From a virus (lineage: Duplodnaviria; Caudoviricetes), in the IMG/VR virus record IMGVR_UViG_3300037755_000503, positions 1 through 36,121 of that record: a stretch of 36,121 nt of DNA; one strand, given 5' to 3'. Both the position numbers and the translations under genes were made by a program. The notes beneath the pieces were generated by a model. That model made no database searches. It saw only the letters and a list, made by a program, of their open reading frames with translations, and had not been told where the DNA came from. Numbering within the stretch: the first letter of the stretch is position 1; each line of letters starts with the position of its first letter. Shown here one piece after another: positions 15,486 to 31,853 of the stretch.

Positions 15486-15707
15486 TCCCCGCACTTCTGT
15501 CACGCCCGCGAGTGCGACGTGAAGGTCGCACCGAAGCTGCTCATGTGCGGGCCGCACTGGCGGAAGGTCCCTCACCGACTGAGGCGTGCCGTGTGGGACA
15601 CCTACGTGCCCGGCCAGGAGATCAGCAAGCAGCCGTCGGGCGCCTACCTCCGTGCCGCCGAGGCCGCGATCGACGCGGTCGCAAGAGCCGAGGGACTGGC
15701 CTCGTGA
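15474..15707 (+). CDS. Small Cys/His protein (77 aa)
   Basis: HFCHARECD...LMCGPHW. Confidence 0.7.
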   Translation: MPADSPHFCHARECDVKVAPKLLMCGPHWRKVPHRLRRAVWDTYVPGQEISKQPSGAYLRAAEAAIDAVARAEGLAS

Positions 15708-16699
15708 CGGTCTCCGCGCTGGGCAACGCCCGGGTCGTCGCCGACGTACGCGACATGCCGCGCCCCGAGTGGCTAGCACTGCGGCGCACCGGGATCGGCG
15801 GATCCGACGCCGCCGCCATCTGCGGCCAGAGCCAGTACAAGAGCGCCCTGGAGGTCTGGCTCGAGAAGACCGGCGCCATCGGCGAGCAGCCCGACAACGA
15901 ACGCATGTGGTGGGGTCGCGAGCTCGAGGACAAGATCGCCTACAAGCTCTCCGAGAAGACCGGTGTTGAGCTCACCAAGGTCGGCGCGCTCCTGGCCCAC
16001 CCCGAACACGAATGGATGCTCGCCAGCCCCGACCGTGCCGCTTGGGACCCGAGGCGCATCGGGCTCGGAGCCGAGGTCGGAATCTCCGAGCTGAAGACTG
16101 CCGGCTACTTCCCCGGCCAGGAGTGGAAGGGGCGCGACGCCAAGGTGCCCGACGCCTACGTCCTCCAGGGCATGCACTACCTCGCCGTCTGCAACCTGCC
16201 GTTCGTGCTGTTCGGCTGCCTCATCGACTTCGAAGTTGTCCCGCTCATGGTCGAGCGCGACGACGAGCTGATCGCCCTCCTCATGGACCGTGAGGCCGAG
16301 TTCTGGGAGATGGTCACCGAACGCCGGCCGCCACCTCCCGACGGCAGCAAGGCGACCACCGACCTGCTCACGGCGCTGTACGACCTGAAGCCCGGCGCCG
16401 TAGTCACGCTCGACCCGGCTGAGGTCGAACCGATCGTGGAGATGCGCGCCATCGCCGCCGCCGCTGAGAAGGCCGCCAAGGCGCAGAAGGACGAGGCGAG
16501 CAACCGGCTGCGCCGGATGATCGGCGAACACGAGATCGCCAATGCACCCGACGGCCGGAAGCTTTTCAGCTGGAAGCAGGTCACGACCCACAAGGTCGAC
16601 ACCGGGCTGCTCGCCCAGGTCCACACCGAGATCGTCGAGGGCTTCATCCGCCCGTCGACGTACCGGACCATCCACGTCCCGAAGAGGAAGAAGGCCTGA
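15704..16699 (+). CDS. YqaJ-like (lambda-exonuclease fold) recombination nuclease (331 aa)
   Basis: WLALRRTGIGGSD, LASPD, ELKT, Y.LQ.MHY motifs. Confidence 0.92.
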   Translation: MTVSALGNARVVADVRDMPRPEWLALRRTGIGGSDAAAICGQSQYKSALEVWLEKTGAIGEQPDNERMWWGRELEDKIAYKLSEKTGVELTKVGALLAHPEHEWMLASPDRAAWDPRRIGLGAEVGISELKTAGYFPGQEWKGRDAKVPDAYVLQGMHYLAVCNLPFVLFGCLIDFEVVPLMVERDDELIALLMDREAEFWEMVTERRPPPPDGSKATTDLLTALYDLKPGAVVTLDPAEVEPIVEMRAIAAAAEKAAKAQKDEASNRLRRMIGEHEIANAPDGRKLFSWKQVTTHKVDTGLLAQVHTEIVEGFIRPSTYRTIHVPKRKKA

Positions 16700-17055
16700 T
16701 GAAGACGTACGTCATCTACGGCGCCAGCGACGACCTTGTCGAGGTCGAAGGCGCGATCCGCGAGGAGTACAACTGCTGGGACGAACACGGCGCCCAGCTG
16801 ACCCTGGCCTACGAGGTCGACACCGACCACATGCGCGGCGGTGTCCGCGTCCACGTGAAGTACGAACTCAGCGGGTGCTGGTCCGTCGGGATCTCCCCGC
16901 TGGACGAGGACATCCCGATCCCGGCCGACTGGACGTTCGAGCTCCGGCCCGGTTCCGAGCCCCGAGACGACGTCAGCGCTGGTCGGTACACGGCCGTCCT
17001 GTTCGCCACGGTGGACGACGACGTCAGCCTGACCCGGGACGGAGCCGAGGACTGA
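16699..17055 (+). CDS. Hypothetical protein (118 aa)
   Basis: YGASDDLVEVEG motif; TGATG coupling at both ends. Confidence 0.8.
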   Translation: MKTYVIYGASDDLVEVEGAIREEYNCWDEHGAQLTLAYEVDTDHMRGGVRVHVKYELSGCWSVGISPLDEDIPIPADWTFELRPGSEPRDDVSAGRYTAVLFATVDDDVSLTRDGAED

Positions 17056-18641
17056 TGGCCACCGATACCACCGACCTGAAGAACAAGCTGGCCCGCACCG
17101 ACGGCAACGGGCAGCCCGAAGAGAAGCCGCTCGCCACCGTCGTCCGCCAGGCCATCGACCGCCAAGCCGACGCCTTCCGCGCCGTGCTCCCCGCAGGCGT
17201 CGACGCCGACCGGTTCGCCCGCCTCACCATGGTCGCGATCAAGGCCAACCCGAAGCTCATGGCCGCCTTCAGCACACGGCAAGGTCAGACCTCCGTCCTG
17301 CTCGCCGTGATGCAGGCCGCCGCCCTCGGCCTCGAACCCAACACGCCGACCGAGGAGTGCTGGCTCCAGCCCCGCAACCGGAAGGCGAAGGACGAGCACG
17401 GTCGCGACGTCTGGGTCGCGGAGTGCGAGCTGTCGATCGGCTACAAGGGCTACAAGAAGCTGGTCCGCAAGGCAGCGGCCAGCAGCGGTACCCCGGTCAA
17501 GAACATCTTCGCCGAGGTGGTCCGCGAGGGCGACCTCTTCCGCTGGTCTCGTGGGATCGACGCCGACGTGCTCGAGCACACGCCCGTCGACGGGCCCGGC
17601 GATGAGGAGGCGCCGCTCACGCACGTCTACGCGGTGGTCCGGTTCGCCGACGGCACCAACGATTTCGTGGTGATGAACCGGACGCAGGTCTACAAGCGCC
17701 GGGCCATGTCCGACTCGTGGAAGCGCGACCAGAAGTACTCGGACCAGCCGCCGCGTTCGCCGTGGTTCCATTGGGAGCCGGAGCAATGGCGCAAGACCGG
17801 CATCCGGACGCTGTGCAAGCAGCTGAACCTGTCACCGCAGTTGGAGCGTGCGCTGCAGTCCGATGAGGCACGACTGGCGCTGGGTGACGGCGGCATCCAG
17901 GCGTTGCCGTATAAAAACACGGCCGGCGAGCTGGAGCAGGCGCCGTCGCAGGCTGCCCGGCGGCAGGCCTACGGGCTGGGGTTGGGTGGCGGCGAGGTCG
18001 TACCGGCCGACGTCGACCCGGAGACGGGCGAGATCGACCGCGTGCCGAGTGACATTGCCGGTGAAGATATTCCTGGGGATGTCACAGCCGACCACATCGA
18101 GGCCACGGCCACCGCTGATCCCCCACCGGCGGCTCCCCGCGTTGATGACGCGCGGGGGGCCGCCCCGGCGGATAAGCCGATGCTGCCGACCCAGCGGAAC
18201 AAGCTCTTCGCCCTCCTCGACGAACACAACATGCTCCGCGACGAGGACCGTCACGCCTACGCCTCAGCGACGCTCGGCCGCGAAGTGAAGTCCTTCACAG
18301 ATCTGACGAGAGGCGACGCCTCCGACCTCATCATCAAGCTCAAGGAGTTGCGGGTGAGGCCGGGGCCGGACGATGACGAGCCCGCTATGGAGGTCGATCC
18401 GGAGAGACCGGCCACCGACGAGCAGCGCAAGGCCCTGGTCCTGCTGCTGCGTGAAGCGGGACTCCACGGTCCGCAGAAGTTCTCGTGGTGCGGCGCCAGG
18501 ATCCGCCGGTCGATCAAGGACTTCACCAGTCTCACCCAGGCCGAGCTCGGCGTGCTGATGGAGGAGGCCGGCCAGCGCGCCGAAGCCAACGCCGCCCAGG
18601 CCGCCCAGGAACTGCCGTCGGACGGGGGTTCGAGCCAATGA
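17055..18641 (+). CDS. recT: RecT-family ssDNA annealing protein with long C-terminal extension (528 aa)
   Basis: AAALGLEP, IGYKGY, VVREGD.F, SPW...RKT.IR motifs; near YqaJ nuclease. Confidence 0.88.
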   Translation: MATDTTDLKNKLARTDGNGQPEEKPLATVVRQAIDRQADAFRAVLPAGVDADRFARLTMVAIKANPKLMAAFSTRQGQTSVLLAVMQAAALGLEPNTPTEECWLQPRNRKAKDEHGRDVWVAECELSIGYKGYKKLVRKAAASSGTPVKNIFAEVVREGDLFRWSRGIDADVLEHTPVDGPGDEEAPLTHVYAVVRFADGTNDFVVMNRTQVYKRRAMSDSWKRDQKYSDQPPRSPWFHWEPEQWRKTGIRTLCKQLNLSPQLERALQSDEARLALGDGGIQALPYKNTAGELEQAPSQAARRQAYGLGLGGGEVVPADVDPETGEIDRVPSDIAGEDIPGDVTADHIEATATADPPPAAPRVDDARGAAPADKPMLPTQRNKLFALLDEHNMLRDEDRHAYASATLGREVKSFTDLTRGDASDLIIKLKELRVRPGPDDDEPAMEVDPERPATDEQRKALVLLLREAGLHGPQKFSWCGARIRRSIKDFTSLTQAELGVLMEEAGQRAEANAAQAAQELPSDGGSSQ

Positions 18642-25447: not shown

Positions 25448-25692
25448 TGCTCACGCCCAACGTCCCCCGCCAACCGGTGGACCTGGCCGTGGCAGCAGCC
25501 AACGAGATGCCGAAGCTCGGCGGCCTCGTCGACCCAACCCGGGCCGCATGGGTCGTAGTCGACGCACTGCGCAAGGCGGGATGGCTACACGCACCCGTCA
25601 CGATCCACATACATGGCCAGGTCCAGGGCGAAGACGACCTCGTGAAGAGTGTCTGCGACGCCGTCGCGAAGCACCGTCTCACCCGCGCCTGA
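25447..25692 (+). CDS. Hypothetical protein (81 aa)
   Basis: TGATG coupling. Confidence 0.6.
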   Translation: MLTPNVPRQPVDLAVAAANEMPKLGGLVDPTRAAWVVVDALRKAGWLHAPVTIHIHGQVQGEDDLVKSVCDAVAKHRLTRA

Positions 25693-25807
25693 GGCCGACC
25701 ATGGGGGACCCGATGACCGCCACACCCACCACCACGGACCATCCGCCGATGTCGGTCATCGGGCCCCACCGATTCGGACGCTGGCTCGACCGCCGACCGG
25801 TGACCCC

Positions 25808-26083
25808 ATGCCCCAGTACCGCAAGCCAGAAGGCCGGCCCTACCGACGGGCCAAAGCCCAGGTCCGAGCAACCGAATCCGTCTGCTGGCTCTGCGGTGGC
25901 GCCATCGACAAGGCACTCCGCTTCCCACACCCATGGTCCTTCAGCGTCGACCACGTCATCCCCGTCGAGATGGGTGGAGCACAGAACGACCGCAACAACA
26001 TGAGAGCCGCACACCTCCGCCACAACCAAGAACGAGGCATGGGCAAGGCCAAGCCACCAACGAGACAATCACGCCAATGGTGA
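25808..26083 (+). CDS. Packaging-associated HNH endonuclease (HK97 gp74-like, 91 aa)
   Basis: CWLCG...SVDHVIP...N...AH..HN; just upstream of terminase module. Confidence 0.85.
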   Translation: MPQYRKPEGRPYRRAKAQVRATESVCWLCGGAIDKALRFPHPWSFSVDHVIPVEMGGAQNDRNNMRAAHLRHNQERGMGKAKPPTRQSRQW

Positions 26084-28788: not shown

Positions 28789-30117
28789 ATGGCTCTCGCA
28801 ACCGCTGAGGCGCTCGACCTGGCACGCGAGCTCCACCAGATCCGCGAGAGCGAGTGCACCCGACTCGACCTGATCCACGAGTATCTGCGTGACGACCCGA
28901 ACGAGCGGCGCCTCGGCGGGCTCCCGGTGGGCGCACCCCCGGATGTGGTCCGCCTGGCCCGGATCGCCCGGGTCAACGTCCTGAAGTACACGGTCACGGC
29001 CCGGGTGCAGAACATGTACGTAGACGGGTTCCAAACCCCGATGTCGCCGGACAACATCGCGGCGTGGGACGTGTGGCAGCGGAACCGGCTCGACGCCCGC
29101 TCGATCGGTGTGCACCGGGCGGCTGTGTCGTTCGGCGCCGGGTACGTGACGGTGATCCCCGGTGACCCGGTGCCGGTGATGCGGGGGGCGTCGCCACGGA
29201 AGCTGACGGCCGCGTACGGCGATGACGACGACTGGCCGAGGGCGACGCTCGAGCAGCGCCGCAACAAGCGGTGGCGGATGCTCGACGAGACGTCCGTGTA
29301 CGAGCTGCGCGGCAACGACCACGGCGCCGGGTTCGAGCTGATCTCCACGTCGGACCACGGTGCGACGGCCGACGGGGAGCCGGTGTGTCCGGTCATCCGG
29401 TTCACCGACACCGTCGACCTGGACGACCCGGTGCGGGGGATCGTCGAACCGAACCTGTCGCTTCAGGATCAGATCAACATCACGACGTTCGGGTTGATGG
29501 TCGCGCAGCACTACGGCGCGTTCCGGCAGAGGTACATCCTCGGCTGGTTGGCCGAGACCGAAACGGCCGCGCTGAAGATGGGCGCGGCCCGGCTGATGAC
29601 GTTCGAGGACTCCTCGTCCGACATCTCGGTCGGCGAGTTCGCGCAGACGGACCTGCGTGGCTACATCGAGTCCCGTGAGGCGACGATCCGGCACCTGGCC
29701 ACCGTCTCCCAGACCCCGGTGCACGAGCTGCTCGGCCAGTTCATCAACCTTTCCGCGGAGGCGTTGGAGGCGGCGAGGGCTGGGCATCAGGCGGCGATCG
29801 ACGAGAACAAGACGGTGCTCGGCGAGTCGTGGGAGCAGGCCCTGAATCTGGCCGGCGAGATGAACGGCGTGCCGGCGGATCCGGCGGCGTCGGTGCTGTG
29901 GCGCGACACCCGGGTCCGGTCGCTCGGCGACGCCGCCGAGGCGCTCGGCCTCCTGGCGGAGAAGCTCGGTATCCCGGTCCGTGAACTGTGGAAGCGGATT
30001 CCCGGTGTCCCTCAACACGAGGTTGAGCGTTGGGAGGTCGCCGCCGACGAGCAGGGTGACGCCATGGGCGACCTCGAGCGGACGCTCGATCGGCAGTCCG
30101 TCGGCGCCGACGCCTGA
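28789..30117 (+). CDS. Portal protein (SPP1 gp6-like, ~442 aa)
   Basis: WQRNRLD, AFRQRYILG, NLSAEAL, LGESWE motifs; position. Confidence 0.92.
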   Translation: MALATAEALDLARELHQIRESECTRLDLIHEYLRDDPNERRLGGLPVGAPPDVVRLARIARVNVLKYTVTARVQNMYVDGFQTPMSPDNIAAWDVWQRNRLDARSIGVHRAAVSFGAGYVTVIPGDPVPVMRGASPRKLTAAYGDDDDWPRATLEQRRNKRWRMLDETSVYELRGNDHGAGFELISTSDHGATADGEPVCPVIRFTDTVDLDDPVRGIVEPNLSLQDQINITTFGLMVAQHYGAFRQRYILGWLAETETAALKMGAARLMTFEDSSSDISVGEFAQTDLRGYIESREATIRHLATVSQTPVHELLGQFINLSAEALEAARAGHQAAIDENKTVLGESWEQALNLAGEMNGVPADPAASVLWRDTRVRSLGDAAEALGLLAEKLGIPVRELWKRIPGVPQHEVERWEVAADEQGDAMGDLERTLDRQSVGADA

Positions 30118-31853
30118 TGGCCCGCACCGACGCAGGTGCGGCGCTCACGGCCCGTCATCACGGCCAGCAGGTCGCGGTGCGGTCCCGTGTGCTGGCGGCG
30201 CTGCTGCGGTTGTGGCGGTTCGTTGATCCGACGAACCTGGCCGGGACCATCAATCCGTTCTCGGCGGCGGCGGCGGCGCTCGTCCAGGCCGGTCACCGCG
30301 ACTCGGCCCGGACGGCGTCGGCGTACTACGTGGCGTTCCGGTCGGCGGAGGGTGCCCGTGGTGCCGTCGCGGTCGCGCTCGGCTCCCCGCCGGACGCCGA
30401 TCTGATCTCCATCGCGTTGCGCGCGGCGGGCCTGGCGGGGATCATCCGGGCCCGTCAGGCCGGCGCGACGCCGCAGGTTGCCGCCGATCGGGGGTTCGTC
30501 CGTGTGGCCGGTTCGGCGTCGAACCTGGTGCTCGACGGTGGCCGGCAGACGATCACCGACGCGACCGCCTCGGATCCGGCGGCGACCGGTCTCTGGCTGC
30601 GGGTCACCGACGCGGACCCGTGTGCGTTCTGCGCGATGCTCGCCGCGAGGGGCGCCGTGTTCTCCGCCCGCACCGCGAAGTTCGAAGCGCACGGTGCCTG
30701 CGTACTAGGAGCGACGACCGTAGGCGGTCCGAGGTTTGAGGCCGCGTTCCGACGGTGGTACGAGGGGGAACTCGTCATCATCGGCCTGCCCGACGGCGGA
30801 GAACTGGCCATCACCCCGAAGCACCCAGTACTGACCGATCGCGGGTGGGTTGATGCGGGTCTGCTCAGCAAGTCGGACCGTCTCGTCCACAGCGGCGCGC
30901 GTGGCCCTGGATCTGTTGCTCCAAATGAACACCATGCTCCATCCTCGATTGAGGATGTATGGCGTACGGGTCGCGTGAATGGGCTTGTATCCATGCCAGT
31001 TGCCGCCGAGGATTTCCACGGCGATGGAGTGGGAAGTCAGGGCGAAGTCGACGTTGTAACGCCCTATCGCCTTCTCCCTGGTGTAGCTGATGCCGCGGGT
31101 GTCGAGTTCCTTGCGGAACAGGTCCTCGCCCGTGCTGGTGACGCCGGGTCGGGGTCCGAGTCGTTCGCGCGTCGCGGCGGCCTGGGCCAGCTCGGCCTCG
31201 GTCTTCTTCCGGCCTCGGGCGGCTGCGTGTGCGGCCTCCAGCTTGGCGCTGATCTGTTCCGGGGTGAGGGTCGAAACGTGCAACCGGGAGGCATCCAGAG
31301 GGCCGCGACGCTCGACGTCGGCCTCGCTCAGCCAACGCGTGACCACGCCCCGGGCGACGCCATACCTGCCGGCGATCGACTTCTCACTCTCGCCGCTTCT
31401 GTAGGCCTCGATGAACGACCCGTCTGGAGGCTCGATACGCCCATTGCCCGGACGCTGACGGCGGGTCCTCGCTTTGATCCCCCGCCTGCCGAGGAAGGTG
31501 CGGACGGCGTTGGCGCCCAGGCCGACCTCGGCCGCCGCCTCCTTGAACGTCTTGCCGGTGGCGTACAACTCCGCCGCGTGGTCGATCTTCGCCGGGTCGG
31601 GGGCTGGTCTGGGCACGTGTTCAATCTCCGAACATCCGAGGGCTGGTATGCCGCCAACAGCCTAGTCGTATCCAACTGCTCGTGCCAGGCCGAGCCCGAG
31701 TTCGAGGGCTCGGTGCTGCCCGCGAAGTCGCTCGAGTTCGCCGATCTGTGGTCGCGCTCGACGCCCGGGCTGTCCGGGAAGGACGCCGAGAACGCGTTCC
31801 GGCGGGCGCTCGAAGGCCGGTCCTTCCCCGATGACCCGATCGCCGCCGCCTGA
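30117..31853 (+). CDS. MuF-like minor head / capsid-maturation protein precursor with intein (578 aa; ~252 aa spliced)
   Basis: W.RV....PCAFCAMLAARG; splicing restores FEAHGA-CSCQAEP (HxxCxC). Confidence 0.85.
   Translation: MARTDAGAALTARHHGQQVAVRSRVLAALLRLWRFVDPTNLAGTINPFSAAAAALVQAGHRDSARTASAYYVAFRSAEGARGAVAVALGSPPDADLISIALRAAGLAGIIRARQAGATPQVAADRGFVRVAGSASNLVLDGGRQTITDATASDPAATGLWLRVTDADPCAFCAMLAARGAVFSARTAKFEAHGACVLGATTVGGPRFEAAFRRWYEGELVIIGLPDGGELAITPKHPVLTDRGWVDAGLLSKSDRLVHSGARGPGSVAPNEHHAPSSIEDVWRTGRVNGLVSMPVAAEDFHGDGVGSQGEVDVVTPYRLLPGVADAAGVEFLAEQVLARAGDAGSGSESFARRGGLGQLGLGLLPASGGCVCGLQLGADLFRGEGRNVQPGGIQRAATLDVGLAQPTRDHAPGDAIPAGDRLLTLAASVGLDERPVWRLDTPIARTLTAGPRFDPPPAEEGADGVGAQADLGRRLLERLAGGVQLRRVVDLRRVGGWSGHVFNLRTSEGWYAANSLVVSNCSCQAEPEFEGSVLPAKSLEFADLWSRSTPGLSGKDAENAFRRALEGRSFPDDPIAAA
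30699..31676 (+). mobile_element. Intein (326 aa)
   Basis: Cys1 (CVLGATTV), block B ITPKHPVLT.RGW, block F GHVFNLRT, terminal VVSN, +1 Cys. Confidence 0.9.
30705..31616 (-). CDS. Antisense putative homing endonuclease: two HTH + NUMOD-like + DUF559/Vsr-like nuclease (303 aa)
   Basis: STGE...E..IGRYNVDFA....IAVEILGGNWH...GW...FIW; GGAG RBS 10 nt upstream of GTG. Confidence 0.82.
   Translation of the reverse strand: MPRPAPDPAKIDHAAELYATGKTFKEAAAEVGLGANAVRTFLGRRGIKARTRRQRPGNGRIEPPDGSFIEAYRSGESEKSIAGRYGVARGVVTRWLSEADVERRGPLDASRLHVSTLTPEQISAKLEAAHAAARGRKKTEAELAQAAATRERLGPRPGVTSTGEDLFRKELDTRGISYTREKAIGRYNVDFALTSHSIAVEILGGNWHGYKPIHATRTPYILNRGWSMVFIWSNRSRATRAAVDETVRLAEQTRINPPAIGQYWVLRGDGQFSAVGQADDDEFPLVPPSERGLKPRTAYGRRS

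What the first reader, a model, noticed from the sequence alone, without database searches (positions are those of the whole stretch)
30699..31676. Intein whose endonuclease is a separate gene on the opposite strand
Seen: the MuF-like ORF is interrupted at its HxxCxC motif (FEAHGA|C...VVSN|CSC) by a 326-aa intein with blocks A, B (TPKH), F and G. Its middle has no LAGLIDADG or HNH motif and reads like a Gly/Ala/Leu/Arg-rich shadow frame. The minus strand holds a 303-aa ORF (31616-30705) in exact codon register, starting at block F with its own GGAG RBS and a possible TAGGCT -10 (31659-64), and ending at intein codon 3. It has two HTH repeats, a basic NUMOD3-like segment and a DUF559/Vsr-like nuclease. 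Both frames stay open for 912 nt, and the nuclease ORF's tail shares DNA with the N-terminal splicing blocks. Known: canonical inteins carry the homing endonuclease in frame. Inference: a two-strand selfish element in which splicing rescues the head protein while the nuclease is expressed independently of late genes. Caveats: I recall a recent actinophage intein survey mentioning endonucleases in a separate reading frame, so novelty needs checking; the nuclease has EILGG where EVDG is usual, so activity is unproven.
Basis: partly seen in the sequence, partly recalled or inferred. Interest (0 to 1): 0.92.

Follow-up and report, generated by a model that had tools for sequence, protein, structure and literature searches.

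The report
Intein with backwards-encoded homing nuclease
A phage head-assembly gene carries an insert that likely splices itself out of the protein (an intein), and the opposite DNA strand of that insert encodes, codon against codon, a conserved protein predicted to be the DNA-cutting enzyme that spreads it; a 2025 preprint already described this layout, so this is a well-supported new example rather than a new kind of element.

Summary
Confirmed. A 326-aa class 1 intein (Hint fold, Z 11.5) splits the HxxC-x-C motif of a VG15/MuF-like head gene, and a 303-aa HTH-HTH-Vsr-like ORF (Vsr Z 9.7; I-Bth0305I top Foldseek hit) lies antisense in exact codon register. The host frame is stop-free in 189 of 190 loci, the nuclease frame in 165 of 165 complete ones, and selection switches strand: middle dN/dS is 0.26-0.48 for the nuclease frame and 0.7-1.3 for the host frame. 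The start codon is the block F His codon read backwards; SD and promoter-like boxes sit in block F/G codons, far above recoded controls. An independent metagenome contig lacks exactly these 978 nt. The architecture is published (Gosselin et al., bioRxiv 2025), and this scan found it before in at least 9 other genomes. Added here: the nuclease ORF runs through block B in 106 of 106 representatives; the family also sits in a metallopeptidase and a dCMP deaminase; a free-standing relative lies tail-to-tail with an intein-less MuF gene in Acinetobacter phages. The last Asp of the EDxHD motif is absent. Splicing, expression and cleavage are untested.

The parts
30117..30698 (+). N-extein (194 aa) of the VG15/MuF-like head protein, with CxxC (CAFC) and ending FEAHGA
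   Evidence: Pfam VG15 E 9e-20; PHROG 193 head maturation protease E 1.5e-26; lies between portal and scaffold genes
30699..31676 (+). Class 1 intein, 326 aa: Cys1, block B T39-H42, block F H306, Ser-Asn326. Ordered about 1-99 and 255-326; middle 102-248 largely disordered in the model
   Evidence: Hint fold Z 11.5, rmsd 2.0, 108 aligned; 978-nt empty allele
31677..31853 (+). C-extein (58 aa), starting Cys+1-Ser-Cys
   Evidence: Aligns with intein-less homologues reading H..C.C
30705..31616 (-). Antisense ORF, 303 aa, predicted homing endonuclease. Its GTG start is the reverse complement of the block F His codon; its stop lies opposite intein codon 3
31317..31595 (-). Two helix-turn-helix repeats (aa about 8-46 and 67-100)
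   Evidence: Pfam HTH models; model helices; HTH structural matches Z 5-6
30789..31151 (-). Vsr-like/DUF559 nuclease domain (aa 156-276) with E164, D190, E201, W207, H208, H214, R217; its last strands share DNA with intein block B
   Evidence: 1cw0 Z 9.7 rmsd 2.9 113 aligned; 3hrl Z 9.6; 3r3p Z 9.0; conservation
31626..31629 (-). Shine-Dalgarno GGAG, written in the block F Leu codon CTC plus the next base
   Evidence: SD in 81 of 106 representatives vs at most 40 in any recoded control
31659..31670 (-). Predicted -10 region in block G codons: TACGAC at the family's usual place (lacks the last T) and TAGGCT 6 nt downstream
   Evidence: TAnnnT at the two usual registers in 75 of 106 vs at most 38 recoded; shifted box in 8 of 31 loci lacking it vs 1 of 75. 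The sigma70 scan finds no full promoter in the window

Best explanation
This is a likely self-splicing class 1 intein in a phage head gene whose predicted homing endonuclease is a separate gene on the opposite strand, in exact codon register. On the sense strand the 578-aa precursor would splice (Cys1, block B Thr/His, Asn326, Cys+1) to give a 252-aa head protein with its HxxC-x-C motif restored, and the middle 150 residues are a disordered by-product loop. On the antisense strand a promoter-like -10 in the block G codons, an SD in the block F Leu codon and a start codon that is the block F His codon read backwards would express a 303-aa HTH-HTH-Vsr-like protein. That protein likely cuts intein-less alleles at or near the HxxC|xC site in mixed infections, and repair (the phage encodes RecE/RecT-like proteins) would copy the 978 nt across. 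Shown: anatomy, both open frames, folds of the models, selection on each strand, precise empty alleles. Inferred: splicing, transcription, translation, cleavage, homing.
For: Folds. Host frame stop-free over the nuclease span in 189 of 190 loci found with the nuclease alone, GC 35-72%; the other four frames have median 6-9 stops. dN/dS on 39 disjoint pairs: nuclease frame 0.26-0.48 and host frame 0.70-1.32 in the middle; host frame 0.11-0.21 in the tails outside the ORF. Junction N|C in 108 of 108 and TxxH in 103 of 108. ATG/GTG/TTG opposite the block F His position in 97 of 106. SD 81 of 106, -10 75 of 106, TGn-extended -10 39 of 106 vs at most 10 recoded. TTGACA/TTGATA-N17-TATA(A/G)T in 6 of 14 loci inspected by hand. 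D190, E201, R217 in 108 of 108 and E164 in 96; D190 and E201 also in all 14 phage loci found without motif patterns. Empty alleles: a contig of independent run X2 skips exactly 978 nt; 16 intein-less VG15 homologues; only 70 of 500 phage records hit by the jerseyvirus gene region cover 80% of it, and most of the 60 rows shown have the empty site. RecE and RecT-like genes.
Against: No experiment, and no RNA data. The last Asp of EDxHD is absent (no acidic residue in aa 202-243); in I-Bth0305I, D222N prevents cleavage (PMC3239194). The general-base His (H208) is in 102 of 108, but my search patterns contained GGxW(H), and only 1 of 14 pattern-independent phage loci has W-H. No near-identical inteins in divergent exteins: pairs with intein DNA >=91% identical have exteins >=89% identical. 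Host classes cluster on the nuclease tree (5 changes vs 17 shuffled; quick tree), so much inheritance is vertical. The window's box at the usual -10 place lacks the last T, and no -35 signal is found in C-exteins. The penultimate residue is Ser, not His (71 of 108). Loci were found through the nuclease, which biases toward intact nuclease frames.
Confidence: 0.78

Rival explanations
1. The antisense gene is real and expressed but is no longer a homing nuclease; it is kept as a DNA-binding regulator or for another phage function, and the patchy distribution reflects old spread and repeated precise loss.
For: Last EDxHD Asp absent; general-base His lost in 13 of 14 pattern-independent phage loci; no recent-transfer pairs; host classes cluster on the tree.
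Against: D190, E201, R217 invariant and E164 near-invariant, as expected of an active site. Occupied and empty alleles coexist among close relatives. The family reached unrelated hosts.
Confidence: 0.15
2. The intein does not splice efficiently; the head gene is dispensable and only the nuclease matters.
For: Penultimate Ser; an unusual Gly-Ala at -2/-1 where intein-less relatives have Asp/Asn/Ser followed by His/Asn/Arg/Gly; weak intein HMM scores (TIGR01445 E 0.045).
Against: Host frame stop-free in 189 of 190 loci; splicing residues invariant (C1, H42, N326, C+1); host dN/dS 0.11-0.21 in the tails.
Confidence: 0.04
3. The antisense ORF is a shadow frame of a GC-rich gene.
For: The window is 67% GC and has many long spurious ORFs.
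Against: Confident nuclease fold; open in loci down to 42% GC; variation concentrated at the nuclease's third codon position; the plus-frame middle is the disordered one.
Confidence: 0.01

Closest known systems
Full inteins with anti-sense VSR-like homing endonucleases in actinobacteriophages (Gosselin, Arsenault, Gogarten, bioRxiv 10.1101/2025.01.02.630785)
   Same: Contiguous intein, VSR-like nuclease on the anti-sense strand, structural match to 1CW0 and 3R3P, no fold in the in-frame middle. The preprint says minor capsid inteins all have non-canonical nucleases, and names Angelicase (Angelicage in GenBank), Affeca, Keitabear, Sedona and REQ3, all of which my tblastn also hits.
   Different: [quoted passage not shown] Its main text has no occurrence of promoter, ribosome or start codon and covers actinophages only; the family also occurs in Salmonella, Pseudomonas, Klebsiella, Vibrio and Aggregatibacter phages and in non-head hosts. 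Its supplements were not available and may hold some of this.
EDxHD homing endonuclease I-Bth0305I and Vsr-like nucleases of fractured genes (Taylor 2011, PMC3239194; Dassa 2009, PMC2677866)
   Same: N-terminal repeated HTH-type DNA-binding modules plus a C-terminal Vsr fold; E170/D196/H213 equivalents and the Glu at the Vsr Phe62 position are kept.
   Different: The last Asp (D222/Vsr D97) is not acidic here. Those genes lie in group I introns or between split-intein halves, not antisense within a contiguous intein.
Anti-sense LAGLIDADG inteins (Synechocystis dnaX, Chloroflexus SpoVR-like; as cited in the preprint)
   Same: Homing nuclease on the strand opposite the intein.
   Different: Different nuclease family.

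Membership tests
Class 1 intein | N-terminal Cys/Ser, C-terminal Asn, +1 Cys/Ser/Thr | tested here: met
   C1, N326, C+1; invariant in 70 aligned
Class 1 intein | Block B TxxH and Hint fold | tested here: met
   TPKH; 103 of 108; Z 11.5, rmsd 2.0, 108 aligned to 1at0
Class 1 intein | Precise in-frame insertion against intein-less alleles | tested here: met
   978-nt skip 30698 to 31677 in run X2, one contig of depth 3
Class 1 intein | Protein splicing | not testable with these tools
   No assay
Anti-sense VSR-like nuclease inteins (Gosselin 2025) | Contiguous intein with a VSR-like ORF on the anti-sense strand and no in-frame nuclease fold | tested here: met
Anti-sense VSR-like nuclease inteins (Gosselin 2025) | Homology to the preprint's own clusters | tested here: inconclusive
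   tblastn hits phages that the preprint names, but its main text discusses four of them under the endonuclease VII paragraph and the supplementary table was not available
EDxHD homing endonucleases | Vsr-like fold with N-terminal HTH/NUMOD modules | tested here: met
   3r3p top Foldseek hit (E 1.6e-3), Z 9.0; two HTHs
EDxHD homing endonucleases | E, D, Glu at the Vsr Phe62 position, and H | tested here: met
   E164, D190, E201, H208 in the window, assigned by spacing and fold; the His is not kept across the wider family
EDxHD homing endonucleases | Last Asp (I-Bth0305I D222, Vsr D97) | tested here: not met
   No acidic residue in aa 202-243; the Asp of 3hrl aligns with H214
EDxHD homing endonucleases | Site-specific cleavage of the empty allele | not testable with these tools
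   No assay
MuF1 (Pfam Phage_Mu_F) host protein | Match to PF04233 | tested here: inconclusive
   The window host matches VG15, not PF04233; 23 of 60 homologous N-exteins match PF04233 and 15 match VG15 at the same H..C|xC site

The most novel reading that the evidence does not exclude
One old two-strand cassette arose when a free-standing Vsr-like nuclease, still seen tail-to-tail with an intein-less MuF gene in Acinetobacter phages, overprinted an intein aimed at the same site. Its promoter, SD and start codon are written in splicing blocks F and G and its last strands in block B, so neither partner can be deleted alone. It cuts with a non-EDxHD active site (Glu-Asp-Glu plus an invariant Arg) and has jumped to unrelated cysteine or metal-site genes (metallopeptidase, dCMP deaminase).
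Probability: 0.35. Interest if true: 0.65.

Novelty: new member of a known kind. Interest (0 to 1): 0.42.

Why it matters
Inteins read as mini or decayed may hide an intact nuclease gene on the other strand. About 126 GenBank phage records carry a homologue, and of the 14 first inspected only two annotate the antisense ORF. The element is a natural case of about 300 codons of antiparallel dual coding, with each strand's selection measurable. It also offers a test of how inteins acquire homing nucleases, and culturable Gordonia phages make the test feasible.

Tried and rejected
Single-sequence locus search found no relatives; the alignment did. The sigma70 scan found no two-box promoter in the window, and no -35 enrichment was seen in C-exteins. 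No RNA holder was listed, which is no evidence either way. No pair with near-identical inteins in divergent exteins was found among the top 60 pairs printed. Profile searches of PDB sequences reached 3hrl but not 3r3p or Vsr, so active-site equivalences rest on spacing and fold. The careful tree did not finish; only the quick tree was used. The MuF end beside the free-standing Acinetobacter nuclease differs from relatives, but relatives without the nuclease differ among themselves there too, so an altered target site is not shown. NUMOD3: no Pfam match. The motif tally was not used as independent evidence because the search patterns contained the motif. Literature searches found no other paper on this layout.

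Full report
Observation. The window is a whole 36,121-base virus record with direct terminal repeats. It has terminase, portal, scaffold, major head, tape measure, endolysin and RecE/RecT-like genes. The gene after the portal (30117-31853, 578 aa) matches Pfam VG15 over its first 195 residues; related actinophage genes are labelled MuF-like minor capsid or capsid maturation protease. Residues 195-520 (30699-31676) read C...TPKH...GHVFNL...VVSN, followed by Cys. The minus strand holds a 303-aa ORF, 31616-30705, in exact register.

The insert is an intein. A model built on 70 aligned sequences is confident for about residues 1-99 and 255-326 and mostly below pLDDT 50 for 102-248. All 32 rows at Z>=2 are Hint domains, best Z 11.5, rmsd 2.0, 108 aligned; Foldseek's top rows are also inteins, though none reaches E 0.001. 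Sixteen of 16 VG15 homologues returned in the 106-340 aa range read H..C.C without an insert; that length filter excludes intein-bearing forms. One contig (depth 3) of an independent soil run joins 30698 to 31677, skipping exactly 978 nt, with 19 differences in 139 letters. So a close relative has the empty site.

The antisense ORF is a real gene. Its model (27 sequences, mean pLDDT 86.7) has two HTHs, a helical linker and an alpha/beta domain. That domain matches Vsr (Z 9.7, rmsd 2.9, 113 aligned), NGO0050 (Z 9.6) and I-Bth0305I (Z 9.0); I-Bth0305I is Foldseek's first hit, E 1.6e-3. I collected 190 loci including the window: 80 of 138 viral, 15 of 15 genome and 80 of 122 metagenome matches, plus 14 picked from about 126 phage records. 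The exact-register opposite frame has no stop over the nuclease span in 189 of 190; the other four frames have medians of 6-9 stops. Both intein ends could be called in 165 loci; 25 were cut off or missed by the pattern. None of the 165 has a nuclease-frame stop between the start and intein codon 30, though finding loci through the nuclease favours that. Representatives at under 70% identity number 108; two with miscalled ends were dropped for later counts (106).

Selection by strand (39 disjoint pairs among 122 distinct DNAs, 62-99% identical; residue labels are one too low). In the HTHs, linker and nuclease core, dN/dS is 0.26-0.48 in the nuclease frame and 0.70-1.32 in the host frame. In the tails outside the ORF it is 0.11-0.21 in the host frame and above 1.4 in the other. 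In two overlaps (nuclease 1-22 and 236-290) both frames are below 1. The shared middle codon position inflates that, but host third-position differences fall from 0.41-0.53 in free tails to 0.29 in the block A/B overlap (25 more distant pairs), which points to constraint from the nuclease too. The ORF runs past block B in 106 of 106.

Expression signals. ATG, GTG or TTG lies opposite the block F His position in 97 of 106. An SD is present in 81 of 106, against maxima of 23-40 in three sets of 500 synonymous recodings; the Leu codon is CTC in 85 of 99 against 28% in exteins. A TAnnnT box lies at one of two registers in the block G codons in 75 of 106 (recoded maximum 38), with an extended TGn in 39 (maximum 10). 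The codon three from the end ends in A in 77% of cases, against 5-27% at most other tail positions. Of 31 loci lacking the box, 8 have one 6 nt further on, the window's TAGGCT among them, against 1 of 75 (Fisher p 2e-4, but relatives are not independent). Six of 14 loci inspected by hand have TTGACA or TTGATA, 17 nt, then TATAAT or TATAGT. So the promoter function, not one sequence, appears conserved. No RNA data test this.

Active site. E164 is in 96 of 108; D190, E201 and R217 in 108; H208 in 102; H214 in 92. By spacing and fold these match I-Bth0305I E170, D196, the Glu at Vsr Phe62, and H213 (passages of PMC3239194 and PMC2677866). The last Asp of EDxHD has no acidic counterpart, and D222N inactivates I-Bth0305I. 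The GGxWH motif was part of my search patterns. Among the 14 phage loci found by tblastn, all keep D190 and E201 but only one keeps W-H. I infer a Glu-Asp-Glu site with Arg217 as the basic residue; this is untested. I do not file the protein as EDxHD, though it likely works like one.

Mobility. For: occupied and empty alleles coexist (70 of 500 records cover 80% of a jerseyvirus gene region, and most of the 60 rows shown have flanks only). The window's N-extein is 63% and 54% identical to intein-less proteins but at most 47% to the hosts of its 12 nearest inteins. Of 60 N-exteins scanned, 23 are Phage_Mu_F, 15 VG15, 1 phage metallopeptidase, 1 dCMP deaminase and 20 unassigned. In L159 the flanks match PF18894 positions 2-90 and 91-128; in L189 the intein sits in PCVA|C. 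Against recent spread: intein pairs >=91% identical have exteins >=89% identical, and host classes cluster on a quick tree (5 changes vs 17 shuffled). The one locus with host-frame stops, Acinetobacter phage P1068, holds a free-standing homologue tail-to-tail with an intact, intein-less MuF gene; three records share this among 79 relatives hit. Whether it is ancestor or escapee was not determined.

Comparison with print. Gosselin, Arsenault and Gogarten (bioRxiv 10.1101/2025.01.02.630785; I read the abstract, the first third of Results, section 15 and search passages) report full inteins with anti-sense VSR-like nucleases, matched to 1CW0 and 3R3P, say all minor capsid inteins are non-canonical, and suggest horizontal transfer for two VSR-like clusters. 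The parts I read are computational. Its figures and supplements were not seen and may cover this clade. [quoted passage not shown] Arsenault 2025 (PMC11855218) has no VSR or MuF mention (term search only). Passages of PMC5576092 say MuF function is unknown and SPP1 gp7 binds the portal; PMC8425127 notes an intein in the jerseyvirus capsid morphogenesis gene (passages). Searches found no other report of the layout in this library. This scan noted the same arrangement in at least 9 other genomes, some with the SD and promoter. Searches of its notes for extein switches and for the Acinetobacter free-standing form found none holding all words.

Verdict. Confidence in splicing plus antisense homing nuclease is 0.78; interest 0.42.

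Noticed in passing
L191:462-2125 (Acinetobacter phage P1068; also IME285, BUCT629): Free-standing homologue of the nuclease on the opposite strand, overlapping the stop of an intact intein-less MuF gene, about 50 nt from the usual insertion site.
   Followed up: partly
L159:2070-3926 (-) and L098:2138-3562 (-): The same two-strand intein inside a phage metallopeptidase (PF18894), at HEL|CH and HIL|CH.
   Followed up: partly
L189:619-2025 (-) (virus Rctr197k): The same intein inside a dCMP deaminase zinc motif PCVA|C; GenBank calls the gene a head morphogenesis protein.
   Followed up: partly
L096 (-), intein next to 1623: Intein at NDQYGN|CTCA, which resembles a papain-like catalytic Cys motif (recalled; no Pfam match).
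   Followed up: partly
L183 (Mycobacterium phage Sejanus) and L184 (Rhodococcus phage REQ3): Sejanus has the intein at another site (KVWV|CTID) of a head protein. REQ3 starts with Ala (class 3 in the preprint) and has a short nuclease ORF without HTHs.
   Followed up: no
L067, L071, L074, L153, L174, L178, last 63 nt of the intein: Near-perfect two-box sigma70-type promoter on the antisense strand, wholly inside block F/G codons.
   Followed up: partly
L004:1402-2211: GenBank annotates the antisense ORF of Salmonella phage PK2 as a hypothetical protein inside the head gene.
   Followed up: no
window 15512-18641 and 25649-26083: RecE-like exonuclease and a 699-aa RecT-like protein; a small HNH ORF upstream of the terminase (weak Pfam match).
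   Followed up: no
L194-L196 against L191, MuF 3' end: Obolenskvirus MuF proteins are almost identical for 185 residues and then vary strongly around the insertion-site motif.
   Followed up: partly
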